The notes under the pieces: model-generated
Database searches by the model: none
Told to the model about the DNA's origin: nothing
Seen by the model: only the letters and a program-made list of their open reading frames with translations
From: a virus
Lineage: Duplodnaviria > Caudoviricetes
Strand: one strand, 5' to 3'
DNA: 64,000 nucleotides
Virus record (IMG/VR): IMGVR_UViG_2788500220_000013
Coordinates: 1 to 64,000 of that record
Part shown: piece after piece, positions 1 through 45,741 of the stretch
Layout of the letters: each line of letters opens with the position of its first letter
Position numbering within the stretch: the stretch's first letter is position 1
Translations under genes and position numbers: made by a program

Positions 1-391
1 GGAGCTTTTCTTTCCATTGATCAGATGCTACATGAAGGATCGGATGATTAGGATCAATATCAGAACCAGGGGTTACATCAAATATCTCAATTGCTAATCC
101 ACCGTCTCCAGACCACTCATCTTCTAACATAAGAGCTGCCTTATGACCGCCGTCCTTAAGATATATGTTAAATGCATATGACATTAGGCCTTGCTGTTCA
201 AAATCAAACCACTGGCCGTCAACAATAGTTTCCCAACCATCACCCATGCCATCGCCGTCAAGATCACCTCTTACTGCTAACTTTGTCTCATCCCAGTCAG
301 TATAACCATCTGCCCAAACGACGACAGCTAGTTTTCTATCCCATGGTTCAGATTTTTTCTTTTTTAATTTTTGTCTAAACTCATTTTTCAT
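1..391 (-). CDS. Hypothetical acidic protein, 5' part only (runs off the left edge of the window)
   Basis: Hand translation from ATG at 391 gives MKNEFRQKLKKKKSEPWDRKLAVVVWADGYTDWDE...ASDQWKEKL with no stop to position 1. A GAGGAG RBS lies just upstream. Absent from the ORF track because it is truncated. Confidence 0.8.
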   Translation of the reverse strand, partial: MKNEFRQKLKKKKSEPWDRKLAVVVWADGYTDWDETKLAVRGDLDGDGMGDGWETIVDGQWFDFEQQGLMSYAFNIYLKDGGHKAALMLEDEWSGDGGLAIEIFDVTPGSDIDPNHPILHVASDQWKEKL

Positions 392-440
392 TAGTTTTCT
401 CCTCTTACTAATTTATTGTTAATACGATAACGAAACGAAG

Positions 441-614
441 CTCATGACACAAAAAAACAGCCGATACACCAATATGTTACACCTAGAAACTAGACTAACA
501 AATAAAACGTATGACTGTTACATTAACGTTGTGCCGAACCGGAGAACGACTAACTTGACTCATCAAAACCAAACTCTGTAGGTTCGGTCGATTCCCTTAT
601 AAATATGGAGCTCG
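441..614 (-). promoter_or_regulatory. Conserved non-coding leader element, copy 1 (putative late promoter plus structured 5' UTR)
   Basis: Shares ordered sense-strand blocks with 5938-6091: CTCCATAYTTATAA, TTAGTC..TCC, CGTTA..GTAACAGTCA, and TCGGCTGTTTTTTTGTG. Confidence 0.65.
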
Positions 615-630
615 ACCGAATTCCTACAGA
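575..630 (-). terminator. Long imperfect hairpin after the 620-aa gene, probable intrinsic terminator, with the late-promoter motif in its loop
   Basis: Inverted repeats tctgtagg/cctacaga, ttcggtcga/tcgaccgaa and tcc/gga flank a cttataaatat loop. The minus strand continues GTTTGGTTTTG. Confidence 0.55.
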
Positions 631-640
631 TAAAACTTAA

Positions 641-2503
641 TTAACCTATCATTCTCATGCGGACTAAGCCTCCACACTCGACGACTTTAACATACCTTAT
701 TAATTCATCAGCAGCATTGCCGGCCGAGTCCTTAACATTGTATGTAATCTGGTAGTCTCCTGCCTCGGACAGATCAACTGGCGCGCCAGATACTTCAATC
801 GATTTTGATATATCTGATATATTCCCGTCAGCATCTTCATCTTCAGCAGTAGCACCTTCATCGCTGTATTCAGCATCATCCGTTCTACAGATTACCAATG
901 GGCTATCTTTATCAAACCCATCGCCTGTACCACGAAGTATAGGCTTAATTGTATCTGGTTTCTTAAGCAGTTCGATGTACCGCTCTGCAGAGGCTACATT
1001 ACCTGAGGCATCTATTGCCATATAAGACACTGTAAATGATCCATCCTTTCCGCTAGCTAATGCATCTTGGATAGCTTTTACATCTGCCTGACTTGGATTG
1101 GCAACAACATCTTGATCAATACTATCTGATGCATCTGCACCATACTCAACATATGAGCCACCAAATTCAATTTCTAAAGGCTCGGCAATAGTACTACCGG
1201 GCCCAAGGATTGTTATGACGGGTGGTAATGTGTCAACAAAAGTTACTAACCTAGTTCTCTTTGTTTCATTTCCGCTATCATCAATTGCTGTGTATACGAC
1301 TTCAGTTGTACCTGGGACAAGCGGGTCAATCTCATCTAATTCTGGATTTATAGATACATTGACGTCGATGTCCTCATCATCTGATACACTATATTCGTCA
1401 AAAGAAGGTGGCCATGGGCTACCTGCTTCTAAAACAATATTGACTGAGTCACCGAATGGTAACAACGTCAAATCTGGGTCAGTAATATCTGCTGCTTCCA
1501 CAGAAAACATCTCAGTAACCGTCTGGCCGTCTGCATCTGTTATAACACAAGACATGGTAATGGATTCGCCGGTAGGCAGCTCAGATATATCAAGAACTGT
1601 CCCTTGTAAGGTTTCACCGTTTTCCCACAAGTATGCATAGGGTTTTGTACCACCAGCAGCGGTTACTTGAAACTCAGCACGCTGTGTCTCTCTATCCGCG
1701 GATACCACTACGTTACCATCAATTTGAGCAACCAAAGGATCTGGTACTACTTCACCTTCAATAACAACAGTGCGTATAGCGGATGGTATTGTAATCTTAT
1801 ATGAGTAGGGATCGTCGCCATAACGGCCATAGGACTTGTCATAATTAATAAAGTAACCCTGGCTCATATACGAGGCCATTCTTGCATAGACTGCAATAGA
1901 ATATTGATAATCCCTATGATATTTCCTGAATAGTTCAGGATGATCCGTAGTATCATCTGGCCAGACAAACTTATAAGATCCGTTAAGCGGTGCACTATCT
2001 AATAGCTTAAAAACCATAGTGGTTAAAATATACCTACCGTCGCTACCATCTGATTCAGGGACTATATCACCATGTCCATGGTACCTGGAGGACCAGTCGA
2101 ATTTATAAGCATAGATATACTCACCATGGGTATCGGTATGATAATGTCTTACATATCCTCCTGTATTTAAGTCACCGGTTTTGATTAATCCGTCGGCGAC
2201 ACTGGTCGATGGCTTTTCGATCCATCCGTGATCGTCCCCGGTCTCATGAAGTGCTTGTATGCGCGCGCGGTGCTCTTCAGTAAATCGTGCAGTGTGACCA
2301 GGTCCGTTTTCAAAGCCGTAGAAAAACATACTTTCATGTTGGTATCCGGGGACACTCAACATAGTGAAAAAACCCTTATCAATCTGTGAGGGTGTCGGAT
2401 CCTTTATAATCACTGGCAGCTTAACAATATTTTCACCAAAAATAGGATCATTAGCATGATATTCTGGTGTACCTAATTCAATATGATGATCTAAATAAGA
2501 CAT
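641..2503 (-). CDS. Ig-like repeat (DUF5011/HYR-like) protein, probable virion surface protein, C-terminal GLVRMRMIG tag
   Basis: Three repeats of the type DT.PP.I.L.G...Y.E.GA.A.D..D...Y.A.D.SGN....R.V, preceded by a PKD/SprB-like AGGTKPYAYLWENG segment. Confidence 0.7.
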   Translation of the reverse strand: MSYLDHHIELGTPEYHANDPIFGENIVKLPVIIKDPTPSQIDKGFFTMLSVPGYQHESMFFYGFENGPGHTARFTEEHRARIQALHETGDDHGWIEKPSTSVADGLIKTGDLNTGGYVRHYHTDTHGEYIYAYKFDWSSRYHGHGDIVPESDGSDGRYILTTMVFKLLDSAPLNGSYKFVWPDDTTDHPELFRKYHRDYQYSIAVYARMASYMSQGYFINYDKSYGRYGDDPYSYKITIPSAIRTVVIEGEVVPDPLVAQIDGNVVVSADRETQRAEFQVTAAGGTKPYAYLWENGETLQGTVLDISELPTGESITMSCVITDADGQTVTEMFSVEAADITDPDLTLLPFGDSVNIVLEAGSPWPPSFDEYSVSDDEDIDVNVSINPELDEIDPLVPGTTEVVYTAIDDSGNETKRTRLVTFVDTLPPVITILGPGSTIAEPLEIEFGGSYVEYGADASDSIDQDVVANPSQADVKAIQDALASGKDGSFTVSYMAIDASGNVASAERYIELLKKPDTIKPILRGTGDGFDKDSPLVICRTDDAEYSDEGATAEDEDADGNISDISKSIEVSGAPVDLSEAGDYQITYNVKDSAGNAADELIRYVKVVECGGLVRMRMIG

Positions 2504-2781
2504 TATTCATTTCCTCCCGCAAGTTGTTGCATTATCTGATCATTTAGTTCAACACCAATACCTGCGTTCAGGCCGTTGGTGTCACAATGCCGTATCATGT
2601 CTAGCACAACAATGGAGCCCATGAATAAAGAGATATCATCCTCAAATTCTGAGAGATCTGTCTCTGCATGTGCCTCCTTAGCATCTTCAACAGCAGCAAG
2701 AAGTGCTGCCCTATATTGTTCATCTTCAACTTTTGCAATTTCATCAAGCAAAGGTTGAATATCACTATTTTCAATAGCCAT
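2503..2781 (-). CDS. Hypothetical acidic helical protein
   Basis: 92-aa ORF with AGGAG RBS. Its stop overlaps the next start. Confidence 0.65.
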   Translation of the reverse strand: MAIENSDIQPLLDEIAKVEDEQYRAALLAAVEDAKEAHAETDLSEFEDDISLFMGSIVVLDMIRHCDTNGLNAGIGVELNDQIMQQLAGGNE

Positions 2782-2838
2782 TTTATTTCTCCTTTTTATT
2801 TTTTGTTTGTTTCATAACTTAACTTAACGACAAATTGT

Positions 2839-4101
2839 TTACTCTTGAGGTTGTGGGGCCTGACCACCAAACATACCCTGTACAGCATTTGAGAACATCT
2901 GCTGCATCGAGACGAATGTGTCATGCCTTAATTGCACTTCATAAACTGCCTGATCTCTTTCTTCTATTTTCTCTTGCCTTTCTGCTTCTTTGCTCTCTAA
3001 CTCCGCTTTCTTGATATTTATGTCGGATAGCGAGATCGCGATTTCTTGCTCAAGTACAGTCTTTAAATCATTAAAGATTTGATGATTTGGCGCAATCGTA
3101 AGAAAATGATAATCGTCAGTTATACTATCAGGATCAATAACAGTATCTGGTTCAATTTGGGCCCAGGAAACTCCATCAGGTAACAAACCAGGTGTATGCT
3201 TATCTGCAATTCCAGTCAGGCCAATGAATTGAATACCATCTCCAAGAATAAGATTCATGATTTGTGATATCTTATTAACTAAGGAGTTAGAAACAACTGA
3301 TTTTTCATGCTGCTTTTCCTGACGCTGATCCTGGAGGGTATTCAACTGAGCGGTGTTTTCGACAATTTGGTGTATATAATTGCTACGAGCATTTTCAATA
3401 TCGCCGAGTACGGTCTGCGGTATCGAGGCCTCCTGGCCGTCCCAAGCGGGATTAAAGACTTGATAAGCCTCGAGGAAACGACTCCGAATTTCTGCATCAT
3501 CTGAATTAATATAGGCTTTATAATGGCCCATAAGAACCTCAACTGAACGATGGCCATCGTTAGCAATCTCAATGTTGGCCGTGGCGGAATTAATTAAACC
3601 AATTATACTGACTATATCTGCTTGCAATGAAGACCAAAGTTCGAAATCGGTTGTATATTCTTGCTGGATAGATGCTACTTCGTTTAACATCTGCGTTGTT
3701 GATCTAAGATCTCCCTTAAGTTCAATCTCCACCCGGCGTTCTTGAGCTTGGATCAATGCAGAAAGCTCTGTGCAGATCTGAACGAGCGTCCGGAGTTCCG
3801 TTTCCGTAGTATTACGTTGGGAAACTGCCTCTGACCATGCTTCCCTGACTGCCTCAACTTCTTCAATAAGGCCAATTATCATAGGCTCATATGGCTCAAT
3901 CGCATGAAGAGTTTCGATTCTTTCCTCAAGTTGTATTATCTTTACTTGAAGTCCTGAAATTACTTCAGCGTAATCAGACAGCGGTTTACCATCAACGTAG
4001 ATTCTCTCTGCGTGAACCTCTGACCATTGTTTGTCAATTTTCCCAAGTGCACCGCCGTTGTGTACCCGAGGAACGAAATTTAATTTATTATCTTCTGGCA
4101 T
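2839..4101 (-). CDS. Coiled-coil protein with an N-terminal tail-fibre-like motif
   Basis: N-terminus FVPRVHNGGALGKIDKQWSEVHA resembles the P......LG....W...A motif of phage fibre proteins, followed by long heptad-rich E/Q/L segments. GGAG RBS. Confidence 0.55.
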   Translation of the reverse strand: MPEDNKLNFVPRVHNGGALGKIDKQWSEVHAERIYVDGKPLSDYAEVISGLQVKIIQLEERIETLHAIEPYEPMIIGLIEEVEAVREAWSEAVSQRNTTETELRTLVQICTELSALIQAQERRVEIELKGDLRSTTQMLNEVASIQQEYTTDFELWSSLQADIVSIIGLINSATANIEIANDGHRSVEVLMGHYKAYINSDDAEIRSRFLEAYQVFNPAWDGQEASIPQTVLGDIENARSNYIHQIVENTAQLNTLQDQRQEKQHEKSVVSNSLVNKISQIMNLILGDGIQFIGLTGIADKHTPGLLPDGVSWAQIEPDTVIDPDSITDDYHFLTIAPNHQIFNDLKTVLEQEIAISLSDINIKKAELESKEAERQEKIEERDQAVYEVQLRHDTFVSMQQMFSNAVQGMFGGQAPQPQE

Positions 4102-4118
4102 TTTATTCTCCTTTTAGT

Positions 4119-4535
4119 TTAAATTTTTATGGTGTAGTCATTATCAACCAGTATGAGTAATGACTCGCCAGATCCCTCGGGATCAAATGTTATATCTAAG
4201 TCTTCATCAAGCTTAATAGATGCATCTAATTCAACTTTTTTAGAATTAAGTGATATATCTCCAGAGCATGAATAATAGACTAACGGTTCTTCAAAAACTT
4301 CAACTTGTAACTTACTGCTAGGTAGCACATCATCAGAAATGCCTTGTAACAAAGAATCCTCATATATAGAATTGCTTAGTATAATATCTCTATCTGTATC
4401 TAAATCTACACCTGAGTCTAGTTCAACATTCCTAGAGTTTAATATTAAGTGACTAAGGCATTCATCCCATAGCAGGGGGGGAAGTAAAATAATATTAGAA
4501 CTTCCTGCCATTAATCTTAATCTAGCTAATTTCAT
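4119..4535 (-). CDS. Hypothetical acidic protein with N-terminal LARLRLMAG motif and an internal duplicated repeat
   Basis: 138-aa ORF with AAGGAG RBS. Internal repeat LNSRNVELDSGVDLDTDRDI / LNSKKVELDASIKLDEDLDI. Confidence 0.65.
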   Translation of the reverse strand: MKLARLRLMAGSSNIILLPPLLWDECLSHLILNSRNVELDSGVDLDTDRDIILSNSIYEDSLLQGISDDVLPSSKLQVEVFEEPLVYYSCSGDISLNSKKVELDASIKLDEDLDITFDPEGSGESLLILVDNDYTIKI

Positions 4536-4560
4536 TTATTTCTCCTTAATTTTAAAATGC

Positions 4561-5289
4561 TTAACTTAATAACCGTAAACGAACTAATCCCGGCTTTTCA
4601 TTTACTAATGCTAAGATTTCTTCTTCAGAAAACTCACAATCATAAAATTTAAAATAGTCGAAATATTCAAATAACTGAGTGGCGTTGCTTTCAAAATCTA
4701 AAGAACTCTTACGGTTCCCTATGACGGTAAGATAATTGTCTTCGTCCTGTGCAACGTTCACGTCATACGTGCACGCGAGGAGACCGTCAATATAAATTTT
4801 TGTTTTAGAACCAGAACCAACTACTGCCATGTGATGCCACTCATTATCATTGCATGTAGATAGATCTATATCACAACCGATATACATCGTTTCATTAATA
4901 TCACTCCAGTCTCTCTTAGTTAGTCTGGTACCACCCATCTTATTGTCTGGGGTAACATATACCAAGTGACTAGCCCTTCCGTCTGGATCATTTTCGTTAC
5001 ATAGTTGTAATATCGTCCTGTGTGTCCCAACAGTCTTGATACCTTTAAAGAAAAATGAAAAAGTCCATCCTAAACCGGCCGAACATAGTCTTGTTTTTAC
5101 TTGATTAAATTTGCTTAGGTTTCCAGTGTCACCAGTAAACTGAAGTGAATACTTTCCGAACTTTGAATCATTACTAGACACTACGGCACCATTATGAAAA
5201 TACCAGCCGCCTGGGCCTTTTCCCATGCCGGACTTACTGGACTCAGTTGGAGACTCAAAGTCTAAATAATGTTTTAAGTTTTTAATCAT
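4561..5289 (-). CDS. LamG/concanavalin-A-like jelly-roll protein with C-terminal GLVRLRLLS tag
   Basis: SKFGKYSLQF, WTFSFFFK, NEWHHMAVV...KIYIDG and FDYFKFYDCEFSEEEI match the Laminin_G_3 pattern. Confidence 0.75.
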   Translation of the reverse strand: MIKNLKHYLDFESPTESSKSGMGKGPGGWYFHNGAVVSSNDSKFGKYSLQFTGDTGNLSKFNQVKTRLCSAGLGWTFSFFFKGIKTVGTHRTILQLCNENDPDGRASHLVYVTPDNKMGGTRLTKRDWSDINETMYIGCDIDLSTCNDNEWHHMAVVGSGSKTKIYIDGLLACTYDVNVAQDEDNYLTVIGNRKSSLDFESNATQLFEYFDYFKFYDCEFSEEEILALVNEKPGLVRLRLLS

Positions 5290-5297
5290 TATATACC

Positions 5298-5906
5298 TTA
5301 TGCTAGCATTCTCATACGAACAAGCCCTTCCACAGATGGTTTAGGTTCATCTTTAGGATTCGCCTTAGAATGACCGATGATCTTTAATGCATTATAATAT
5401 GCAGCCTTATCAACATCACTCTCAGAATATATAAAGATCTGACCATCTTCCGGGGTCACTGGTTCAAAAATTGCAAATTCAGTTGACACGGTATCCTGTA
5501 TACAGACGTCTTTTATTCTCAATAAGACATCTGAAATTTCGCTAGTCCCTCTATGCTGAATTCGAAATCCCACAACATCACCGACCCTGTAGGGGCTATA
5601 TAAGGCACCATCATCGTTTGTTGTGTAGAATTCATTTGCATTCTTAATTGCATCTTTCATACCATCCGGGGTGTCTTCACAAAGACGGCCGTCTTCTGCA
5701 AAGCGCTGGGGCGACGTATTCCACCTAAACACGAAAGAACTGTATACTTTTCCATCATTTTCAATATCGTTTTGAGGGAAAAAATGGTTGACGGCTTGCC
5801 GGGGGCGGTTAAAATTACTGGCATGCATATTGGGATCTTCTTTTCCCACAGGATAATGTATATCATCACCAATGGCCCAAAACATACCTTCTTCAATTAA
5901 ATTCAT
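5298..5906 (-). CDS. Hypothetical protein with C-terminal GLVRMRMLA tag
   Basis: 202-aa ORF with AAGGAG RBS. It is the first gene after leader copy 2. Confidence 0.7.
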   Translation of the reverse strand: MNLIEEGMFWAIGDDIHYPVGKEDPNMHASNFNRPRQAVNHFFPQNDIENDGKVYSSFVFRWNTSPQRFAEDGRLCEDTPDGMKDAIKNANEFYTTNDDGALYSPYRVGDVVGFRIQHRGTSEISDVLLRIKDVCIQDTVSTEFAIFEPVTPEDGQIFIYSESDVDKAAYYNALKIIGHSKANPKDEPKPSVEGLVRMRMLA

Positions 5907-5937
5907 TTTATATCTCCTTAAATTGTTAAAACATCAA

Positions 5938-6091
5938 ACTCAACGCACAAAAAAACAGCCGAAGCACTTATCTTTATGCAATACAGCAACAAAAATAAAC
6001 TTGACTGTTACTAACGGAGTCTACAACTAAAGGAGACTAAATTAAAACGTAATTCGTGATTTGCTCACGACAATTATAAGTATGGAGTTCA
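5938..6091 (-). promoter_or_regulatory. Conserved non-coding leader element, copy 2
   Basis: Same ordered blocks as 441-614, plus a small tcgtga/tcacga hairpin at 6054-6070. Confidence 0.65.
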
Positions 6092-6101
6092 ATAGTTTTT
6101 T

Positions 6102-6494
6102 TTAACTGTCGTCGTCTTTACCAGAGATGAATCGAGCTCTAACAATACCGCCTGTACCCATTAATCTCATCCTATTCAACACAGGGACAGTATAAAAAAA
6201 ATCAATAAAAGTAGAAAAATTTTCTGCATCAGCATCTATACCTTCGATTCCCAAAGTAACCGTACCAGATCCAGATAACGAAATAACATCTGCTAACACT
6301 AAGCCATATGTACCTCGGCCATTTATGTCATGGGTTCCGGTCGTACCTGCAACCTGATCCTTAACATCAGGTCCGGCATCTATAGAAAATGATGTAATCT
6401 CCCAACTAGAACTTGCCTGATTATCGCTAAGTGTTAAATTAACCTTTTTAGAGCTTATTGTCTGCAGGTCCCAATTGTCTGTTACTAATGCCAT
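6102..6494 (-). CDS. Hypothetical beta-rich protein ending in two copies of the R-x-R tag
   Basis: C-terminus VLNRMRLMG-TG-GIVRARFISG-KDDDS. Confidence 0.65.
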   Translation of the reverse strand: MALVTDNWDLQTISSKKVNLTLSDNQASSSWEITSFSIDAGPDVKDQVAGTTGTHDINGRGTYGLVLADVISLSGSGTVTLGIEGIDADAENFSTFIDFFYTVPVLNRMRLMGTGGIVRARFISGKDDDS

Positions 6495-6507
6495 GCTCTT
6501 CCGCTAA

Positions 6508-6747
6508 TTAAGACTTATATAAAATTTTCTTTAAATTACGTACATGATTATCAAATTTGCAACAATCAGAATTTACAAACTCTACTGATTTAGCTCGAGC
6601 TTTATTGTCTGCATCATCAAACTCAAAATAAAACCTACCATCTGGAAGCCGCTTACACTCAGTAAGCGAGAACCCGTGGGTCGCTAAATACGCTGCTATA
6701 GCAATATCTGATGTCACAAAAACATTATTTTGTGATGATGTAGTCAT
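6508..6747 (-). CDS. DUF5659-like small phage protein
   Basis: Pattern FVTSDIAIAAYL..G..L......GRFYFEF recognised by eye. Confidence 0.55.
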   Translation of the reverse strand: MTTSSQNNVFVTSDIAIAAYLATHGFSLTECKRLPDGRFYFEFDDADNKARAKSVEFVNSDCCKFDNHVRNLKKILYKS

Positions 6748-6825
6748 TAATCCTCGGCTCCTTAAACGTCCTAATCCACAACTTTAAATATGGAGATGAT
6801 TTAATTCTTGACAGTATACTAACCG

Positions 6826-7902
6826 TCAATTTAGAATCAATACAGTTATAACGTCATCTGGCTCAAGGTCATAGTTAAATGTAATTCCGTCTACTTGATC
6901 AACAGTATAGTCAGCCGATGTTCCATTAACCTGAAGGACACCGTTCACAAAAATATCCCATCTTTGATCATCAAATTCAAATTCTGCCATATTCAATCCA
7001 GGCACAACAACAGGGGTTCCTTCATCAATAAGCTCTTCTATTTCGCCAACAAACTTGAACCTGCCTACCATTAATGCAGAAACTGTAGTTTGGCCGGTTA
7101 ATGGATCAGCAGAAACATCAATACCAGGTCCAGAAACTAGAAATGGTGAAGTACCGTCTGGGCAAAAAATATCTTTAATAGCTAATGTATCGGCAGAGAT
7201 TGATGTAGAAGATATTGCATCTGCTGTTAAATTATCTACTGTTAAATCTTGGGCAGACATCACGTTAGATGTTATATTACTTGCCGTTACTTCTTGAAAA
7301 GCCCCAGACAAGGAAGACACTATGCCAGCAGTAACTCCGGCTGTGGCATTTACCGACTGTGCAGTAATAGAACCACTTGCAAAAATTGAGGCCTCTGAAA
7401 ATAGGCTACCTATATGAAGCGCCTTAAAATCTTGTGAACTAGGATCTGGAAATATATTAAGTTCTGCTGAGCCGGTATTAATTGTGCTAGTATCAACACC
7501 TGCTAACCTAAACTCGTCTGCACTTTTGTCCCAGAAGAATGAAGGGTCATTTGATCCCTCAACATTAAACACTAATCCTCTATCACCCTGTATAGAAGAT
7601 GCTGTAGCACCATACCCTATAAAGATTACTGTAGACTCTACTGATAGGGTTGAGACTTCAATTTCGCTTACTTCACCATGATTTATAAAATCGCCGTATA
7701 AATGAATATCGCCAGTTACTGTAACATCTTGGCTAAATTCATTATCTTCGACAAATATATTCGCAGCCGACAAGAACGGCACCTGCACAGATTCACCGGT
7801 AGGAATTGATCCACTAAATATTAGATCATCGATTTGTGGGTGGGTTAATCTCCCTATCCCATCTAAATCTTCATGATTATCGATTACGACTACTGCGGTC
7901 AT
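6826..7902 (-). CDS. Putative tail fibre/virion structural protein
   Basis: N-terminal HEDLDGIGRLTHPQID motif, S/A/T-rich beta-repeat middle, and C-terminal IFVNGVLQ..G...DY...ITF..DLEPDD.I domain typical of fibre/baseplate-associated proteins. Confidence 0.55.
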   Translation of the reverse strand: MTAVVVIDNHEDLDGIGRLTHPQIDDLIFSGSIPTGESVQVPFLSAANIFVEDNEFSQDVTVTGDIHLYGDFINHGEVSEIEVSTLSVESTVIFIGYGATASSIQGDRGLVFNVEGSNDPSFFWDKSADEFRLAGVDTSTINTGSAELNIFPDPSSQDFKALHIGSLFSEASIFASGSITAQSVNATAGVTAGIVSSLSGAFQEVTASNITSNVMSAQDLTVDNLTADAISSTSISADTLAIKDIFCPDGTSPFLVSGPGIDVSADPLTGQTTVSALMVGRFKFVGEIEELIDEGTPVVVPGLNMAEFEFDDQRWDIFVNGVLQVNGTSADYTVDQVDGITFNYDLEPDDVITVLILN

Positions 7903-7949
7903 TATAAGCCTCGATATAAATTTACACTAAAATCATGTCCTGTAACTTC

Positions 7950-8417
7950 TTATAATAATATTAAAGCACAGGCCAGAAGGTTATTTGACATATGTGCAAA
8001 TATACCAGGTATAACTGAATTTGTTTTTAGTCTTAACCATCCAAAAAATATTGCCAGCGGAAAAACTCCCAAAACATGGATTGGGTCAATATGTGCTGCT
8101 GCAAATAAAATTGATGTTGCATAAAATACAAACAGATCACTAAAACGACAAAACTTTAAGAGTTTCCATAAAAGGCCCCTGAATACTAATTCTTCGATTA
8201 TCGGCATGACTACGCCAATTATCAATACGGCGTATAGTATCTCAATGCCAGATATCTGTGTAATGAGATTTTGAAACTCACTAAGACTCTCTGACTTAAT
8301 CCTAAATGTATTAGAGACTAATGTAATAAATGCGCTGGAAGCTAATCCAATTAAAGGAGCTCCCAATATTGCTAATAACCAAGTTCTTTTTATTTTCCTA
8401 AATAAGCTTTGCCGCAA
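7950..8417 (-). CDS. CPBP (CAAX protease/Rce1/Abi) family intramembrane glutamic endopeptidase
   Basis: Motifs PIIEELVFRG (EExxxR), FAAAH (FxxxH) and HMSNN (HxxxN), with several hydrophobic helices. TTG start after GAGG. Confidence 0.9.
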   Translation of the reverse strand: MRQSLFRKIKRTWLLAILGAPLIGLASSAFITLVSNTFRIKSESLSEFQNLITQISGIEILYAVLIIGVVMPIIEELVFRGLLWKLLKFCRFSDLFVFYATSILFAAAHIDPIHVLGVFPLAIFFGWLRLKTNSVIPGIFAHMSNNLLACALILL

Positions 8418-8430
8418 ATATTACCTCGAT

Positions 8431-9081
8431 TCATGAACTACGAGCAAAGCCCTCAAGCCTTGTTTGCAAATCCATGTTATGCTCAAAACGCCTGACGACA
8501 GAAGGGTATCTTCCAACATTTCCCTCTACCGTACATAAAATTCCATTTTCAAGCTTCTCAACAAACCCAATATGCCCCTGCCAAGATCCCTTAACACCTC
8601 GGTCCCAACATACAACATCACCAGGTTGAGGTGAATTTATAAAATTCCCTGATTCACCGACATTTCTAAACAGTCTTTTGGCACCATGAGATGTGTTAAA
8701 TGATAATGGGATCCCAGTTCGTTTTGATGCTTCTTTAAAACACCAGCTAACAAATGATGCGCACCATGCACCGTCGTCGTCAGGGTCACCATCATCAAGA
8801 ATTCCCTTATATTTAGCAATGTAGGGCCCGCTATTATTTCCGCCGACCTCGCCATTCCCAAGCTCTTCAATTGCAATATTTAAAGCAACAACACCTAATG
8901 AATTATTCTCAGGCGCTTCTGGTAATCTCTCAGAATCCATTGATGCACGAGTATCTGGTCCGCAATACCCATCTTCCGTTAAGTCATGACATTTTTGCCA
9001 GCATTCTGTTAATTGAACTAAGTGCTTACCCGTAATTAGCCCGTCCTCAAATTGCCTTCTATTATAATTTTCCGCACTCAT
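8431..9081 (-). CDS. Endolysin: peptidoglycan-binding-like N-terminus plus CHAP domain
   Basis: WQK.H.LTEDGYCGPDT (PG_binding_1-like) and WCASFVSWC, GHIGFVE, TVEGN (CHAP). Confidence 0.85.
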   Translation of the reverse strand: MSAENYNRRQFEDGLITGKHLVQLTECWQKCHDLTEDGYCGPDTRASMDSERLPEAPENNSLGVVALNIAIEELGNGEVGGNNSGPYIAKYKGILDDGDPDDDGAWCASFVSWCFKEASKRTGIPLSFNTSHGAKRLFRNVGESGNFINSPQPGDVVCWDRGVKGSWQGHIGFVEKLENGILCTVEGNVGRYPSVVRRFEHNMDLQTRLEGFARSS

Positions 9082-9105
9082 AATATTCCTCCGATGAACT
9101 AAATA

Positions 9106-9708
9106 TTATTCAAAATCGATATCAACGCTAATATCGATATTAATCTTTGGTACCCTAAGTTGATTTGCTAATCCATGCTTTTTCGCTTCTTCAGCATCTA
9201 AAAACCAATCAGCATGACCTTTCTTATGAACTAGCTTTAAAAAATAATCATCTTTCTTACCACAATTCTCGGCCATCATCTTATATACAATTTTATTCAA
9301 GCGATCCGTCTCTTCAGCGCTGGCTTTAATCTCTTCTACCTTGCCATATTCCATCGAAGAAACATCATGAATCATTAACGTTGCATTTGGATCCATAAAC
9401 CTTTTTCCATCTTCGCCAAACGTAAATAGTATCGCCCCGCAACTCATTGCCTTTCCTTCAATGATTGTAGCAACAGGAATCTCTGCATGCTTAATGGCAC
9501 TTATCATGGCCATTAAGCTATAAACTTGGCCACCATATGAATCAATAACAACCGGAATAACCTTTTGGCCGGTATTATGAGCTTGAGCCATTTCTAAAGA
9601 AAACTTCTTCGCTGACTCTTCGTCAAACTTATTAACCCTAACAATTACAGGATTTTTCCTAAGTTCAATTTCCTTAATAAGCGGAGATATCTTTGTTGTC
9701 CATTTCAT
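9106..9708 (-). CDS. clpP: ClpP-family serine protease
   Basis: IDSYGGQV, catalytic Ser in AMSCGA, His in MIHDV, Asp in DWFLDAEEA. Confidence 0.85.
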   Translation of the reverse strand: MKWTTKISPLIKEIELRKNPVIVRVNKFDEESAKKFSLEMAQAHNTGQKVIPVVIDSYGGQVYSLMAMISAIKHAEIPVATIIEGKAMSCGAILFTFGEDGKRFMDPNATLMIHDVSSMEYGKVEEIKASAEETDRLNKIVYKMMAENCGKKDDYFLKLVHKKGHADWFLDAEEAKKHGLANQLRVPKINIDISVDIDFE

Positions 9709-9719
9709 TTAAATTTCCT

Positions 9720-12173
9720 TTATGAGCATGCGCTGTAGCTACAAGCAGTACATAATACACAACCCTCTTGATAGACTAGTGTATCTTCAGCACTGCAATT
9801 ACCACAAACTGTTTTTCCTGGCCGGGTGCCATCTTCTATATATGTCTTAAGAACTCGAGCAATTACCTTAGAGAAAGAAAATAAGTCTGCATCTCTATCT
9901 TTTTGAAGTTGTTCTACGACATAGTTTATTGGGGCACCATGGCGAAGTGCCAACGAAATAGTCCTTGTAAAAGCAGAATGATTTGGATTATCAAACAACG
10001 AAACAATATTCTTTAATATTACCTCATCACCATTTTCGCCAAACCTTAAATCATAAATAGAATTAACTGATTTTCTAGGGTGTTTGGTAATTTCGCCATG
10101 TTTATACTTTCGCGGAATTTCTACAAATTGTGCAAGTCCACCCATTACCTCATACGGCCTATTATTTAGTAGGCCAATCAAAATTGTCCAGGCTTCACCC
10201 TTAATTGTAGCATGATGAATATCACACTCGAGGCTTACTGGGCGCTTTGGGGCACTATTGGCATTAAATGTCTGGTCACGATCTTGGCTGACTAAAACAC
10301 CTGTCCTACAACCATCTCGGTATACCGTTACACCCTTGCAACCAGACTTCCACCCAGCCATATAAACATCTTTGACGGTTTCAGTAGTAACATCAGCAGG
10401 TAAATTTGTTGTATTTGATATTGCATGACATATCCACTTTTGGGCTGCTGCTTGAAGCTTAACTTTTTGCACCCAGTTAATGTCATTTGTTAGTGCGTTG
10501 TGATACGGGGATGATTTTACACTAGATTTACCGGTAACATTCATCCATTCCTGAAATCCATGATGGTATACATTATACTCTTGCCATTTATCTCCGACAT
10601 CATCAATAAAGTCAACCTTCCCATCAACATCATTCTCTGTTAGTTTTTTTCTACGTGTATATTTTAAAAGATACGCCGGCTCAATACCTGATGTAGTTTG
10701 TGTCAACGTGGAAACAGAGCCGGCGGGAGCAGTTGTCGTCAAAGCGATATTTCTTCTGCCTGTTTTTTGACACATTTCCTTAATATCAGGAGATGCATCC
10801 CAAATCCTGGTCAAAAATTCATGGCCACGTTCTAAATCATGATCATGAATGGGGAAGGCGCCTCTTTCTTTAGCCATTATACATGAAGACTTATATGCAT
10901 TAACAGTCAACGTCTTATAAAATTTTTCAACTACCTTTATAGACTCGTTTGAACCGTATCTAATACCAAGAGCAGCCAAAGCATCTCCAACAGCCGTAAC
11001 ACCTAAACCTGTACGTCTTCCTAATTGAGCTTGCTTCTTTACTTTTAACCACAAGTCTCTTTCAATTGCTTTTGTCTCTTTTGGTTCAGGATCACCCTTA
11101 ATTTTTTTAAGAATCTTATCAACTTGCTCAATTTCTAGGTCAATCATATCATCCATCAACCTTTGGGCCTTTTGGGAGACGCTAGCTAGCTGATCAAAGT
11201 TAAACCATGCATTTTTCGTAAACGGGTCTTCAACAAATGCTAATAAATTAACAACCATGAGCCGGCAACTGTCATATGGGCTCAAAATAATCTCCCCACA
11301 TGGATTTGTTGATGTTGAACCGAACCCGTATTCAGAATATGCATCAGAAGGTGTAGTTCTTATGGCATTATCCCAAAAAAGCAGCCCCGGTTCAGCGCAT
11401 GCGTGTGCGCACTCAATAATTTCATCCCAAAGCTCAAGTGCATCAACATTTAAAGACATATTTGGTTCTTTCGAGTCGACTGGAAACCGTAATTCAACGC
11501 TGGAGCCGCTTTCTACAGCTTTTAAAAATTCATCCGTTAATCTCACAGAAATATTTGCACCGGTAACCCTAGATAAATCCTTTTTTATACGTATAAAATC
11601 TCTAATTTGAGGATGATGAACAGAAATTGTTAACATTAAAGCGCCGCGGCGGCCACCTTGGGCAACTTCTCGACAAGAATTGGAAAATCTATCCATAAAA
11701 ACTTCAATTCCGTCTGTAGTTCTAGCACAATTTCCAGTTGCTCGGCCCTTGGGGCGGATTGTTGATATGTCAAATCCAACACCGCCGCGGCGTTTAGCAA
11801 TTTGAACTAATTCTTGATCGGATTTTAAAATCCCTCCGTAAGAATCCCAAGGAGATTCGATTACGAAGCAGTTAGATATCGATTGAACCTGATATGGGTT
11901 CCCAATTCCAGACATGGGAGAACCCTGGGGCACTATGTATTTAAAATCCTTAAACAACTCATAAATTTCATTTTCAGATAATGGATTTGGGTAGTTAGAT
12001 TCTATTCTTGCATATTCCTTTGCCAACCTACGATGCATATCATCCGGAGTTGCTTCATGAATGACACCATTCTTATCGGTCAATGCATATTTTGTTACAA
12101 ATACATTAGCAGCTAAATCATCACCATCAAAATATTCTAAAGATTGCTTAATTGCGTCATCAAATTTAATCAT
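9720..12173 (-). CDS. nrdJ: Adenosylcobalamin-dependent (class II) ribonucleotide reductase
   Basis: SNCFV, GGVG, QGGRRGA, TNPCGE, SCRL, TAPAGS, and a C-terminal Cys-rich tail EGCVLCTACSYSACS. No beta subunit gene nearby. Confidence 0.92.
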   Translation of the reverse strand: MIKFDDAIKQSLEYFDGDDLAANVFVTKYALTDKNGVIHEATPDDMHRRLAKEYARIESNYPNPLSENEIYELFKDFKYIVPQGSPMSGIGNPYQVQSISNCFVIESPWDSYGGILKSDQELVQIAKRRGGVGFDISTIRPKGRATGNCARTTDGIEVFMDRFSNSCREVAQGGRRGALMLTISVHHPQIRDFIRIKKDLSRVTGANISVRLTDEFLKAVESGSSVELRFPVDSKEPNMSLNVDALELWDEIIECAHACAEPGLLFWDNAIRTTPSDAYSEYGFGSTSTNPCGEIILSPYDSCRLMVVNLLAFVEDPFTKNAWFNFDQLASVSQKAQRLMDDMIDLEIEQVDKILKKIKGDPEPKETKAIERDLWLKVKKQAQLGRRTGLGVTAVGDALAALGIRYGSNESIKVVEKFYKTLTVNAYKSSCIMAKERGAFPIHDHDLERGHEFLTRIWDASPDIKEMCQKTGRRNIALTTTAPAGSVSTLTQTTSGIEPAYLLKYTRRKKLTENDVDGKVDFIDDVGDKWQEYNVYHHGFQEWMNVTGKSSVKSSPYHNALTNDINWVQKVKLQAAAQKWICHAISNTTNLPADVTTETVKDVYMAGWKSGCKGVTVYRDGCRTGVLVSQDRDQTFNANSAPKRPVSLECDIHHATIKGEAWTILIGLLNNRPYEVMGGLAQFVEIPRKYKHGEITKHPRKSVNSIYDLRFGENGDEVILKNIVSLFDNPNHSAFTRTISLALRHGAPINYVVEQLQKDRDADLFSFSKVIARVLKTYIEDGTRPGKTVCGNCSAEDTLVYQEGCVLCTACSYSACS

Positions 12174-23878: not shown

Positions 23879-26800
23879 CTAATCATCTGATTCTTCTATA
23901 TTCGCAGGTTTATTATTCCCTGCGCTTTGATCAGTTGCAGTTACCCTTTCATCTCTTGTCATCAGCCTACCATGTATATCATGCCCCGTTGATGCATTTA
24001 ATATATTACCCACTTGATATACAGGGGCCCGATTAAATCCGTCAGAGTCAAGTCCAGGTGCAATATCATGAATCGGAGCAAAGCCGAGGTTAACCTTTAA
24101 CCATTGTGGGGCTCGGGATCCGATATCCATCTCCCATGGGGATTCTAAATAATCAAAACTTAAACTGGTAATATGACCGGCAAGGCCGCGACCAGCTGTT
24201 GATTCGAATGACTTGATAACAACATTTTTTTCAGGTGAAAAGAAACCTTCGCCCTTTGAGCCTGTTAACCCAACTGTCTCAGCCCCCTCCATTGCCGTAC
24301 GACCCTCTGCTGCCTTAATTATTTGGGCAGACGTCATAGTCAACTTTTCAGAATATAAAAAGACTTCACCATTAAACTCTGGCGGATCTGGTAGTTCGGG
24401 ATTGTTTTCGTTTTCGCGCTGCGCGGCGACCTCCTGTTGGCGCTCAGTGTTTATCTGCGCAGTATGTTTATCATGAAGCTTAACCTTGTAGCCTGGACGA
24501 GTGGGAGATGAAGATAAATCAGCCCCTGCGGCTGCAATTGCGAATAGGGGCCCTGCACCAGAATAATAAGGGGAGCCATCGATTTCGCCTACCCAACCTG
24601 ATCTAAGAGATACATCCTGGTATCTGTCTCGTTGACCGGAATCTTCGTCAAGATCTTCAAATGCAGCAACAGTTGCCGGTGTATTATCCCTAAGTGTCAC
24701 CTCCCAGCCATCTGTAAAACCAGCTATATTACCTTTAGCATCAACTGCTTCTGATATTGGACCGAAAAAAGGAATAGACGCACCGGTGGGCATCTGTACA
24801 ACTCTATTAATCTGAGCCTTAATTTCCTTAACTCTGTCAAGGTGCTTAATATACTTATCATATGAGTCGGATGCAGTAGTCGTTATGCTGTCTATTTTAA
24901 AACTTGAATTTTCGGCGTTTTTCTCACCGATACCAAAAAGCCTGGCCATATTAAACCTGCTATAATTAGACTTAATCATGTCACCAAGACGCATCCTTAC
25001 AAGGGGAGTTGCAGTTGGGATCTGCGACATAGGCATTATAAAGTTTCGATCGCCTGATTTTACGCTTGTGCCCTTAGACCAGGTTGGGTATATCATCGTT
25101 AGTAATTTATTTAATGATACCCACATGATATCAAAATCTTCCGGACTTGTCGACGCAACTATAAATTGGATATTGATGCTTCTACTTGTCTTTTTCCATA
25201 TTTTAACATCATCGACCCTTCCATAGCCAGCTACAGAACTATATTCAGGAGAAAAATCATCAGAAAGTGAAGATAAAAATGCATGAAATGAAACTATTTC
25301 ATTTGTTCGGATATCTTGAAAATAAAATGGCATATATTCACACTCTAATTGGTTTTCAATTTTCTCTACCATCTCCCTCTTAATTCTAGGGCCTGCTTCA
25401 TTATAGCCATTCTTAGAATTAGGCGCTACGAGTGTCTTCTTATTTTTACTGGCACCGCCGCGAAGAGCAAACCCAGTAACATATGCATCAATACCTGTAC
25501 CAACTGGAAGTGAAAATTGCTCAGTTGCTATTCTAAATGAATCTGGCATTAAAAATGCGGCCGGCAGAACACTATGCCGCCAAACCAGGCGACCGTCGCC
25601 AGCTTTTACATCACGACTTTGGCCCGGGCGGTTTTCTGGTGTTGTGTCCTTATTATCAACAGCATATTTTTTAGCACCGGACTTGAGGCTGACTATTACG
25701 TCACCAAGTTTAATAAGTGTTATAAAAAACGTTACAGTTTTTGAACTAAAAAATGCGTTTAATATCCCGATCACTGATGAGATTGCACCTGTCACACTAT
25801 TCGGCATTGCCAAAATAGCATCAGACATTTGTTCAACATCTCTTATGACACCCCTTGTTATCGTCGCATAGTAGCCGGCCGATATTATATTATTCATTAA
25901 TGCGTCTAGAACATCTTTGGCAACAGGTGCACCTGTATTTTCAACATTAATCCCATAAAATGCCATTAGGCCGCGCCACACGAATGAAAATGGCCCTCCG
26001 GAGCTATTTTTTTGATTTTTTAATTCAGGAATTCCGCATAGGGATGAAAACATGGAAAACCATGGATTTTGCTTTAAGTGTCTACCTTTTTCTAGATTCC
26101 AGGGTGTTTTGGGATCAACGTCGGGAGATGCAGCCGGTTGTAACATTGCTAATGCAGTCATAATTGTTCCTAAGACCGCGGCGCCTGCTGCCATGGCAAC
26201 GAAGTTAGCTGCAGCCACCTGTATCATTCCCATAGGCAGGGGACCTGAAAATGGCTCACCTGGATGATTTAAGTGTCCGTATGATTTATTATTATTTTCT
26301 AATAAATCTGTTGCACCCTCTTCTCCAGCCATAAGTGTATCTGCAAATCCCTTTGTTGCATCTCCACTATTTCCTCCTTCTAGAAAATCCATATGTGTAT
26401 AGTCAGTTGTGCCTTCTTTGTCCATGACATACTGAGCACGAAGTTCATGAGCTTCAGGTAATAATGGAACATAAGGAATTCCCATCTGACCAAGAGGGTT
26501 GATTACAGCACCATCGACACTATCATCCATCATTTGAAAGTCTGCAGTACCTGCCATCATTAGACGGCGACCTATTTTTCTAAGCTCTGAAACTTTCATT
26601 AAATCTGTTGGGCTTGCTTGCCCTTCTACAGTAGGTTGATTTGTGTATTTCCCTAATTCTCTATGAAGACCACCTAATGTACCCTGGGTTGCAGAAGAAA
26701 AACCACCGTCCTTAATATAGGGGCTACCTTCGACAGGATGGAATCGATTATTCTTTAATATAGCGCTGGTTCGTTTTTGAATTACGGTAGGTGCATCTGA

Positions 26801-39084: not shown

Positions 39085-39133
39085 TTGTCTATGCTCCTAC
39101 CTGTTAATCCTTTTATTCTACTATAGGTATACA

Positions 39134-45629: not shown

Positions 45630-45741
45630 TAAGATACTCCGATTCGCTAAATCACTAATAAATATGTAGCTTCGACTATGGTTGACAGAACCAACTCAAT
45701 AAGCGGCTCAAGAATATCATAAGAATGAAAAAAAAGTAGAT

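What the first reader, a model, noticed from the sequence alone, without database searches (positions are those of the whole stretch)
641..6494. A shared terminal R-x-R peptide tag on five unrelated proteins: candidate undescribed docking or sorting system
Seen in sequence: three proteins with unrelated bodies end in almost the same nonapeptide right before the stop. These are the Ig-like 620-aa protein (GLVRMRMIG*, 641-670), the LamG-like 242-aa protein (GLVRLRLLS*, 4561-4590) and the unknown 202-aa protein (GLVRMRMLA*, 5298-5327). A fourth protein carries two tandem copies near its end (VLNRMRLMG-TG-GIVRARFIS, ~6120-6183), and a fifth has the motif at its N-terminus (MKLARLRLMAG, 4503-4535). 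Codons differ at synonymous sites (GGC TTA GTC CGC / GGA TTA GTT CGT / GGG CTT GTT CGT), so the peptide rather than the DNA is conserved. The Arg/hydrophobic alternation suits a beta-strand and forms a basic patch on mostly acidic proteins. No transmembrane helix follows it, unlike LPXTG, PEP-CTERM or GlyGly-CTERM signals. Inference: it is a plug-in tag that attaches interchangeable adhesin or decoration domains to a virion scaffold by beta-strand addition, or it is a protease-recognition signal. I know of no described phage tag with this consensus.
Basis: partly seen in the sequence, partly recalled or inferred. Interest (0 to 1): 0.88.

Follow-up and report, generated by a model that had tools for sequence, protein, structure and literature searches.

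The report
Shared terminal tag on phage adhesins
A group of uncultured marine T4-like phages puts the same nine-residue arginine/hydrophobic peptide on the very end of many otherwise unrelated sugar-binding-type proteins encoded inside their tail-fibre gene block; it most likely works as a common plug that fixes interchangeable adhesins to the virus particle, but the socket has not been found.

Summary
In the window, five minus-strand proteins with unrelated bodies carry six copies of G-h-h-R-h-R-h-h-small. Three copies sit directly before the stop, two in tandem near the end of the 130-aa protein, and one at the N-terminus of the 138-aa protein. Chance, paralogy and DNA-level repeats are excluded.

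A profile search with the 130-aa protein found relatives. Their contigs show the same gene block in at least five other marine phage lineages: fibre, DUF5659, 130-aa homologue, then LamG/Ig-like/beta-helix proteins. There, 19 of 22 block genes carry the R-h-R-h-h-small tag at a terminus, against 0 of 20 flanking genes. Orthologues only 45% identical keep it.

- Tags are more alike within a genome than between genomes.
- The tail is flexible in an AlphaFold model.
- One carrier has a hypervariable N-terminal head with a constant tagged end.

Best reading (about 0.5): a terminal docking strand for interchangeable virion adhesins, a C-terminal counterpart of the N-terminal docking peptides of branched receptor-binding proteins. 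The receptor is unknown. The neighbouring CPBP and ClpP-like proteases do not track the tag.

The scan has noted shared terminal tags with other motifs in other phages.

The parts
641..2503 (-). 620-aa carrier: variable N-terminal head (aa 1-255), four Ig-like/HYR domains, and the tag as its last nine residues (644-670; stop 641-643)
   Evidence: ORF and tail. Pfam Bact_surface_Ig-like 5.7e-26 and HYR. The last Ig domain ends four to five residues before the tag. In strain variant L084 the head is about 30% identical while the rest is 99-100%.
4561..5289 (-). 242-aa LamG carrier; tag at 4564-4590
   Evidence: Five orthologues at 45-66% identity all keep R-h-R-h-h-S at the end (alignment A3).
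5298..5906 (-). 202-aa carrier with no known relatives; Pro/Lys/Glu-rich linker, then the tag at 5301-5327
   Evidence: No homologue outside its own 90% cluster in 5.8 billion proteins.
6102..6494 (-). 130-aa protein: Ig/FN3-like sandwich (aa 1-104) plus two tandem tags (6156-6182 and 6123-6149) and a short acidic end. It is the conserved first gene of the tagged block.
   Evidence: Homologues at 38-53% identity keep both copies, with R110, L111, R119 and R121 invariant. AlphaFold with 7 sequences gives pLDDT 83, body 81-96, tail about 50 with no secondary structure. The fold is a generic Ig/FN3 sandwich.
4119..4535 (-). 138-aa carrier with the tag at its N-terminus (4503-4535)
   Evidence: AAGGAG lies 6 nt before the ATG. 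An unrelated 239-aa protein of another lineage (L191:4857-5576) also starts with the tag.
6826..7902 (-). 358-aa fibre-like protein, conserved directly upstream of the block in all tag-bearing lineages; candidate anchor
   Evidence: Homologues at 35-57% identity in L186 and L193; synteny. It shares a roughly 50-aa C-terminal domain with the 931-aa fibre/spike and with fibres of relative G002.
6508..6747 (-). 79-aa DUF5659 protein, conserved between the fibre gene and the 130-aa gene
   Evidence: Pfam; synteny.
2839..4101 (-). 420-aa coiled-coil-rich protein inside the block, untagged; possible fibrous scaffold
   Evidence: no family match. The role is inferred from composition and position only.
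2503..2781 (-). 92-aa acidic protein, translationally coupled to the 620-aa gene. Its C-terminal two thirds vary together with the head of the 620-aa protein.
2..391 (-). Start of a 387-aa protein cut off by the contig end; not a supported carrier. It is followed off-window by a 931-aa beta-helical fibre/spike.
   Evidence: L089 and L106. Pfam Gp5_trimer_C scores 29.2 bits, below the 30.9 cut-off.
7950..8417 (-). Rce1-like CPBP intramembrane protease with an intact motif set; not consistently linked to the tag
   Evidence: Pfam 2.4e-19; NCBIfam matches all below cut-off. Replaced by thyX in L182, L186 and L190, present in L193. Not found in 5 distant relatives.
9106..9708 (-). ClpP-like protease. 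It is additional to the gp21-type prohead protease at 52398-53027 and is a core gene of the wider phage group.
   Evidence: Present at 58-78% identity in 5 of 5 relatives without tags.

Best explanation
**Claim.** The nonapeptide (consensus [G/S]-[L/I]-[V/T/S]-R-[L/I/M]-R-[L/M]-[I/L/V/T]-[S/G/A]) is a portable docking strand.

**Carriers.** A clade of uncultured marine T4-like myoviruses holds a variable set of adhesin-type proteins (LamG, Ig-like/HYR, NosD-type beta-helix and unknown bodies). Their genes sit in a block inserted in the fibre-gene module.

**Proposed mechanism.**
- Each carrier bears the tag on a flexible end, usually the C-terminus, sometimes the N-terminus or in tandem.
- The tag is disordered on its own.
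- On assembly it would add as an amphipathic beta-strand to one shared site on a virion component. One face (V/M/M-type residues) would be buried and the two arginines would pair with acidic groups.
- This would let different heads be swapped without changing the attachment.

**Candidate sockets.** The proteins that always accompany the tag: the 358-aa fibre family, and the Ig-like body of the 130-aa protein, which itself carries two tags and could act as an adaptor.

**Shown.** The tag, its clade-wide conservation at termini, its concerted evolution within genomes, the flexible tail, and the cargo types.

**Inferred.** Virion location, strand addition, and the identity of the socket.
For: 1. 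**Enrichment and selection.**
   - Terminal enrichment in the window.
   - In relatives, 19 of 22 block ORFs carry the tag against 0 of 20 flanking ORFs, Fisher 3.5e-9.
   - Orthologues of the 242-aa protein at 45-66% identity and of the 130-aa protein at 38-53% keep the arginines and the spacing.
   - Synonymous sites inside the tags are nearly saturated while the peptide is kept.
2. **Portability.**
   - Bodies are unrelated within a genome and mostly non-orthologous between genomes.
   - The tag works at either terminus, on unrelated bodies.
   - One to seven extra residues after it are tolerated.
3. **One reader per genome.** Non-arginine positions are 34% identical within genomes and 24% between them, over 29 tags in 6 lineages (permutation p 0.0004).
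4. **Physical nature.**
   - The hydrophobic moment is 0.6-0.9 at strand periodicity against 0.1-0.3 at helix periodicity.
   - In the AlphaFold model of the 130-aa protein the Ig-like body is confident and complete. The 26-residue tail with both tags has pLDDT about 50 and no structure.
5. **Polarity.** In a co-occurring strain the N-terminal 255 aa of the 620-aa protein, together with the adjoining 92-aa protein, are about 30% identical. The flanks, Ig stalk included, are 99-100% identical. The variable end is therefore distal and the tagged end proximal.
6. **Context.**
   - Cargo domains are of the glycan-binding adhesin type.
   - The block lies between fibre genes. In relative G002 the same place holds fibre genes only.
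7. **Precedent.** Lineage-specific docking peptides of 7-11 residues attach secondary receptor-binding proteins in other phages (PMC6872550; PMC13352976).
Against: - No binding, virion proteomics or structure exists.
- No T4 gp10-like branching domain was detected.
- Within-genome similarity of tags could come from descent (new bodies fused to an existing tag) rather than co-evolution with a reader.
- The motif alone is too short to be distinctive. A profile built from relatives' tags scores random frames as well as the true copies.
- All evidence comes from metagenomic contigs of uncultured phages.
- Some block genes (420 aa, 92 aa, and 58 aa in L186) lack the tag.
Confidence: 0.5

Rival explanations
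1. The tags bind each other rather than a separate socket. Strands from several carriers would zip into a shared beta-sheet or annulus, giving hetero- or homo-oligomers. Carriers would include the tandem pair of the 130-aa protein and the N-terminal copies.
For: - Tandem copies separated by a Gly-rich turn are conserved in all 130-aa homologues, three copies in one.
- N-terminal and C-terminal versions coexist in one genome.
- Concerted within-genome evolution is what self-pairing predicts.
- The strands have strong beta amphipathicity.
Against: - In-register pairing would stack arginines on one face (inference).
- AlphaFold did not fold the tandem pair into a hairpin.
- No oligomer prediction could be run.
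Confidence: 0.15
2. The tag is a recognition signal for a protease or unfoldase. Candidates are the phage CPBP (an R-a-a-X box by analogy with CaaX), the phage ClpP-like protease with host ClpX/ClpA (a terminal degron), or the gp21-type prohead protease. The signal would serve maturation or removal of unassembled copies.
For: - A CPBP and a ClpP-like gene lie 1.5-3 kb upstream in the window.
- Most tags leave exactly three residues after the second arginine.
- Terminal signals at either end are typical of ClpX substrates (my own knowledge, not tested).
- CPBP relatives are annotated as sorting proteases for C-terminal signals in NCBIfam.
Against: - CPBP is replaced by thyX in tag-bearing L182, L186 and L190.
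- CPBP-linked sorting signals have a transmembrane helix and a signal peptide, and neither is present here.
- ClpP-like is present in 5 of 5 relatives without tag or 130-aa homologue, so it is not tag-specific.
- One lineage adds 1 to 4 residues after the tag, and 130-aa homologues add 1 to 6, so a fixed free end is not needed.
- Nine conserved residues are more than known terminal degrons use.
Confidence: 0.12
3. The tag is an export or surface-sorting signal that sends adhesin-like proteins out of, or onto, the infected cell rather than onto the virion.
For: - LamG, Ig-like and beta-helix proteins with C-terminal signals are common among secreted bacterial surface proteins.
- Bacterial homologues of the Ig stalk carry such tails.
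Against: - There are no N-terminal signal peptides and no transmembrane helix after the tag.
- Nine residues are far shorter than T9SS or T1SS signals (my own knowledge).
- The N-terminal and tandem versions do not fit.
- The genes sit in a fibre module.
Confidence: 0.05

Closest known systems
Conserved N-terminal docking peptides of secondary receptor-binding proteins in branched RBP systems (K1-5/K1E/SP6; Klebsiella KP32, KP34, Menlow and phiK64-1 groups)
   Same: - A short peptide (7-11 aa or somewhat longer) is shared by otherwise different host-recognition proteins of one phage.
- The peptide is specific to each phage group.
- It serves to plug interchangeable heads onto one anchor (PMC6872550); binding was validated experimentally in PMC13352976.
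- The genes are clustered in the tail-fibre region.
   Different: - Those peptides are N-terminal, lack positive charge in Klebsiella phages, and dock on a T4 gp10-like branching domain of a primary tailspike.
- Here the tag is mostly C-terminal and can also be N-terminal or tandem.
- It is built around two arginines.
- It sits on LamG/Ig-type proteins rather than recognised tailspikes.
- No gp10-like domain was detected.
T4 Hoc and other Ig-like phage decoration proteins
   Same: - A string of Ig-like domains projects a distal end outward, with attachment through the C-terminal end (my own knowledge).
- The 620-aa carrier gives a weak PHROG match to Hoc-like proteins (4.6e-5).
- The phage is T4-like.
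   Different: - Hoc binds through a folded C-terminal domain, not a nine-residue tail.
- One protein is involved, not a family of unrelated carriers.
- The genes here lie among fibre genes, not head genes.
Targeting peptides that load cargo into protein shells (T4 capsid-targeting sequence; encapsulin C-terminal cargo-loading peptides)
   Same: A short terminal peptide on unrelated cargo is read by one structural partner (T4 reviews found; encapsulins from my own knowledge).
   Different: - Those load internal cargo and, in T4, are removed by gp21.
- The carriers here are adhesin-type proteins expected on the outside.
- The sequences are unrelated.
Donor-strand complementation/exchange in chaperone-usher and type V pili
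   Same: A terminal strand with alternating hydrophobic residues completes or extends an Ig-like sandwich of another subunit (my own knowledge). Foldseek's best PDB hits for the 130-aa body are PapD-type chaperones (E 2.5e-4 to 1e-3, TM 0.43-0.50).
   Different: - The match is weak, and an exhaustive aligner finds only generic Ig/FN3 folds.
- The modelled Ig-like body is complete, with no missing strand.
- There is no sequence relation.

Membership tests
Branched-RBP docking peptide (anchor-branch systems) | Short peptide shared by different host-recognition proteins of one phage and conserved within the phage group | tested here: met
   Six copies in the window. 29 tags in six lineages, more alike within genomes than between.
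Branched-RBP docking peptide (anchor-branch systems) | Peptide at the N-terminus of the secondary RBP | tested here: not met
   Most copies are at or within seven residues of the C-terminus. Only two carriers have it N-terminally.
Branched-RBP docking peptide (anchor-branch systems) | A partner with a T4 gp10-like branching domain | tested here: inconclusive
   Pfam and PHROG scans of the block, the tail and the baseplate proteins gave no gp10-like match. No profile-profile or structure search of these large proteins was done.
Branched-RBP docking peptide (anchor-branch systems) | Physical binding of peptide to anchor | not testable with these tools
CaaX-type C-terminal processing by Rce1/CPBP protease | Cys-aliphatic-aliphatic-X exactly at the C-terminus | tested here: not met
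   Arg stands in place of Cys. Relatives add 1-5 residues after the tag, and tandem and N-terminal copies exist.
CaaX-type C-terminal processing by Rce1/CPBP protease | Protease co-occurs with its substrates | tested here: not met
   thyX occupies the CPBP position in L182, L186 and L190, which carry tags. CPBP is present in the window and in L193.
Tripartite C-terminal sorting signals (LPXTG, PEP-CTERM, MYXO-CTERM and similar) | Signature motif followed by a transmembrane helix and a basic cluster, on proteins with a signal peptide | tested here: not met
   The stop codon follows 1-7 residues after the tag, and the N-termini are not signal-peptide-like.
ClpX/ClpA terminal degron | Recognition depends on the extreme terminus; a dedicated protease partner | tested here: inconclusive
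   The variable extensions after the tag argue against dependence on the extreme terminus. The ClpP-like gene is not tag-specific.
Hoc-like head decoration protein | Ig-like domain array plus a folded C-terminal capsid-binding domain | tested here: not met
   The Ig-like array is present. After the last Ig domain only about 13 residues remain.
T9SS C-terminal domain | A beta-sandwich sorting domain of roughly 80 aa at the C-terminus | tested here: not met
   No such Pfam or NCBIfam match in any carrier. The tag is nine residues long.

The most novel reading that the evidence does not exclude
The tag is a terminus-independent plug for a previously unknown virion display system. One socket, on the conserved fibre or on the Ig-like 130-aa adaptor, would accept by strand addition any protein that carries the nonapeptide. 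The phage could then load a changeable repertoire of adhesins, six or more per genome, and tag and socket would drift together between lineages. It would be a natural plug-and-display device on the phage particle, usable as a small fusion tag.
Probability: 0.2. Interest if true: 0.8.

Novelty: new variant of a known kind. Interest (0 to 1): 0.62.

Why it matters
**If the docking reading holds**
- Short plug-in peptides for host-recognition proteins would extend from a few cultured enterobacterial phage groups to abundant uncultured marine T4-like phages.
- The logic would be shown to work from the C-terminus, with a different chemistry: an arginine-bearing amphipathic strand.
- It would explain how these phages carry and exchange large sets of LamG/Ig adhesins.
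- A nine-residue tag that loads proteins onto a particle would also be a practical display handle.

**Usable now**
- The R-h-R-h-h-small terminus, found just downstream of a DUF5659 gene and a 130-aa Ig-like gene, is a simple marker for adhesin cargo in metagenomic phage contigs that have no annotation.

Tried and rejected
**Searches for more copies**
- Near-identity DNA search of the region in cultured phages: no match.
- Single-protein locus searches with the 202-aa, 420-aa and CPBP proteins in IMG/VR: nothing.
- Strict back-translated tag-plus-stop patterns in IMG/VR and JGI metagenomes: 1, 29 and 33 hits, all in ORFs too short to be genes or out of frame, so chance. These patterns required the window-specific G-L-V prefix, which relatives lack.
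- Five long MCP relatives (about 65% MCP identity): no G-h-V-R-h-R-h pattern. One 318-kb relative, read in full, has no shared C-terminal tail. These relatives are simply outside the tag-bearing clade.
- 20 bacterial relatives of the binned host genome lack the phage.

**Weaker look-alikes, rejected as members**
- The candidates were an internal stretch of the 387-aa protein, the N-terminus of the 931-aa protein, and an internal strand of the 1171-aa protein (window 23879-27394).
- That last strand is conserved as P-h-h-R-h-R-h-G-D in five relatives.
- Exact-word and pattern matches are at chance level: 2 seen against 0.76 expected, and 1 against 0.23. A profile does not lift them above background.

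**Structure and fold**
- Single-sequence AlphaFold and the ESM Atlas model of the 130-aa protein were uninformative: pLDDT 36 and 0.30.
- Foldseek's PapD-type chaperone hits for the 130-aa body were not upheld by the exhaustive aligner or by BFVD, which give generic Ig/FN3 folds.
- PDB sequence search of the 1171-aa protein: nothing.

**Other checks**
- Phage records with a similar CPBP: only three unannotated gut contigs.
- Population variants are 98.7-100% identical, too close to test selection on the tag.
- Rfam on 1-12000: no family.

Full report
**1. The observation**

All genes of the region are on the minus strand. The tag copies are placed as follows.
- The 620-aa, 242-aa and 202-aa proteins end in G-L-V-R-(M/L)-R-(M/L)-(I/L)-(G/S/A), directly before TAA.
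- The 130-aa protein has two copies separated by Thr-Gly and followed by six residues.
- The 138-aa protein begins with M-K-L-A-R-L-R-L-M-A, behind a strong ribosome-binding site.

Codons differ at most synonymous positions while the amino acids are kept.

**2. Chance, paralogy and DNA repeats are excluded**
- The window is bases 1-64000 of a 108,871-bp contig (C13) in a 4.9-Mb, 33-contig assembly.
- Of 19 core-motif hits in ORFs of 60 aa or more in the whole assembly, six lie in 641-6494. Four of the six terminal hits are these proteins.
- I compared the last ten residues of all 116 ORFs of 80 aa or more on the contig, all against all. The three tails score 28-34. The next pair scores 21 and is a true shared 86-aa domain. 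The mean is -9 and the sd 6.7.
- A loose R-x-R-h-h pattern is expected 0.38 times in the last 12 residues of the 83 contig proteins and is seen four times.
- All-against-all BLASTP finds no similarity between the bodies.

**3. What the element is**
- The contig is a large T4-like myovirus.
  - Head and packaging genes: a gp23-type major capsid protein, portal, large terminase and a gp21-type prohead protease.
  - Tail genes: two sheath paralogues, a gp19-type tube, and gp25- and gp6-like wedge proteins.
  - Replication genes: UvsX, DnaB and ribonucleotide reductase.
- All 83 genes lie on one strand.
- Near-identical contigs come from Tara Oceans and other marine metagenomes.
- Two of these contigs (L089, L106) run past the window start.
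  - The truncated ORF at 2-391 is a 387-aa protein without the terminal tag.
  - It is followed by a 931-aa beta-helical fibre or spike.
  - After that come untagged genes.
- The tagged genes therefore lie between a 358-aa fibre-like gene and a 931-aa fibre-like gene. The two share a C-terminal domain.

**4. Relatives**
- Early searches suggested the tag was private to this phage. Those relatives and patterns were simply too distant or too strict.
- An exhaustive HMMER search with the 130-aa protein found four homologues at 38-52% identity. All keep the tandem motif, and R110, L111, R119 and R121 are invariant.
- Their contigs, and those of orthologues of the 242-aa protein, show one conserved arrangement. 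The order is ribonucleotide reductase, ClpP-like, CHAP, thyX or CPBP, fibre (343-403 aa), DUF5659, 130-aa homologue, and then a variable series of LamG, Ig-like/HYR and NosD-type proteins.
- Nearly all proteins of that series end in R-h-R-h-h-small.
  - In L186 this holds for the 350-, 768-, 248-, 680- and 288-aa proteins.
  - In L191 it holds for four proteins, and a fifth carries the tag at its N-terminus.
  - L190, L193 and L194/L184 add further carriers.
  - In total, 19 of 22 complete block ORFs carry a terminal tag against 0 of 20 flanking ORFs (Fisher 3.5e-9).
- Orthologues of the 242-aa protein down to 45% identity keep both arginines and the final serine.
- The G-L-V prefix is particular to the window phage and one close relative.

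**5. Properties that bear on mechanism**
- Position. The tag is usually one residue from the end. One lineage adds one to four residues after it, and the 130-aa family one to six. It also occurs at the N-terminus of two unrelated proteins. A free carboxylate at a fixed distance is therefore not required.
- Concerted evolution. Across 29 tags from six lineages, the non-arginine positions are 34% identical within genomes and 24% between them (permutation p 0.0004). For example, the residue before the first arginine is mostly V in the window phage, S/T in L194 and T in L190.
- Conformation. The hydrophobic moment peaks at strand periodicity, not helix periodicity.
- Fold of the 130-aa protein. 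With a seven-sequence alignment AlphaFold gives a confident seven-stranded Ig/FN3-like sandwich for residues 1-104. Both tags lie in an unstructured tail with low confidence. The fold matches are generic.
- Junction with the body. In the 620-aa and 242-aa proteins the Pfam domains end just before the tag. In the 202-aa protein a Pro/Lys/Glu-rich linker precedes it.
- Polarity. In strain variant L084 the last two thirds of the 92-aa protein and the first 255 residues of the 620-aa protein are only about 30% identical. The sequence on both sides is 99-100% identical. A hypervariable head on a constant Ig stalk with a constant tagged end is the pattern expected of a host-contact protein anchored by the tagged end.

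**6. The neighbouring proteases**
- CPBP gene (7950-8417). It is intact, but thyX replaces it in three tag-bearing lineages and it recurs in one.
- ClpP-like gene (9106-9708).
  - It is not the prohead protease, because a Peptidase_S77 gene lies at 52398-53027.
  - It is present at 58-78% identity in all five distant relatives. In those relatives I found neither the tag nor a 130-aa homologue.
- Gene content. In the closest of these relatives (G002), the site between DUF5659 and the next fibre gene holds no tagged block. The block is thus an insertion into a fibre-gene module. The genes that track the tag are the fibre family and the 130-aa family, not the proteases.

**7. Reading**
- The best-supported explanation is a terminal docking strand. 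It would attach a changeable set of adhesin-type proteins to one site on the particle, probably in the fibre or baseplate region.
- This works like the short docking peptides of branched receptor-binding-protein systems. Those are lineage-specific and as short as seven residues (PMC6872550; PMC13352976).
- It differs from them in position (mostly C-terminal, not N-terminal), in chemistry (two arginines in an amphipathic strand), and in cargo type. No detectable gp10-like branching domain is present either.
- Self-pairing of the tags, a protease or degron signal, and an export signal remain possible, in that order.
- Nothing here shows binding, virion location or the socket.

**8. Novelty**
- I found no paper with these peptides or this arrangement.
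- Earlier notes of this scan describe shared terminal tags with other motifs in other phages, so the general phenomenon recurs. This motif and this clade are new to the scan.
- I class it as a new variant of a known kind.

Noticed in passing
window 2503-2781 and 1740-2503; L084:3233-4494: A sharply bounded hypervariable cassette between co-occurring strains. The C-terminal two thirds of the 92-aa protein plus the first 255 aa of the 620-aa protein are about 30% identical, while the flanks are 99-100% identical. This suggests a head domain and a small partner that are exchanged together.
   Followed up: partly
window 392-640 and 5907-6101: Two related non-coding leaders (74% column identity). 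Shared blocks are CTCCATAYTTATAA, GTAACAGTCA, and a hairpin plus T-run. The first block recurs with two mismatches at 6782-6795 and at 45656-45669, after the capsid gene. They may be terminator-plus-late-promoter units. There is no Rfam match.
   Followed up: partly
window 23879-27394 (1171-aa protein, about aa 690-830): A domain conserved at 45-58% identity in five distant relatives contains an invariant-pattern strand, P-h-h-R-h-R-h-G-D. In this phage the strand shares five residues in a row with the tag. The match is at chance level, but the domain looks like a tube or hub-type fold and has no Pfam, PHROG or PDB sequence match.
   Followed up: partly
window 9106-9708 and 52398-53027: The phage encodes a ClpP-like protease in addition to a gp21-type (Peptidase_S77) prohead protease. 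The ClpP-like gene is a core gene of the wider group (5 of 5 relatives). Its role is unknown.
   Followed up: partly
window 7950-8417; L182:5289-5999, L186:3150-3854, L190:7785-8495: The slot between the CHAP lysin and the fibre gene holds a CPBP intramembrane protease in some lineages and thyX in others.
   Followed up: partly
window 6826-7902; L106:2607-5402; G002 68375-75921: Several fibre-like proteins of this phage and of relative G002 end in the same domain of roughly 50 aa (pattern F-x-F-x-L-x-x-x-D-x-I-x-V). It may be a common attachment or trimerisation module.
   Followed up: no
C13 63101-67613 (partly beyond the window): Adjacent 1023-aa and 444-aa proteins share an 86-aa C-terminal domain ending in a basic/hydrophobic strand. 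This is ordinary domain sharing, not a short tag.
   Followed up: partly
assembly contig C6 13800-27672 versus C13 96143-108869: A second strain of the same phage is present in the bin. Proteins range from 100% down to 72% identical across a sugar-nucleotide epimerase region, and C6 extends beyond the end of C13.
   Followed up: no
window 35533-42286: Two full-length sheath paralogues of 1050 and 1183 aa (33% identical over 930 aa) stand next to one tube gene.
   Followed up: no
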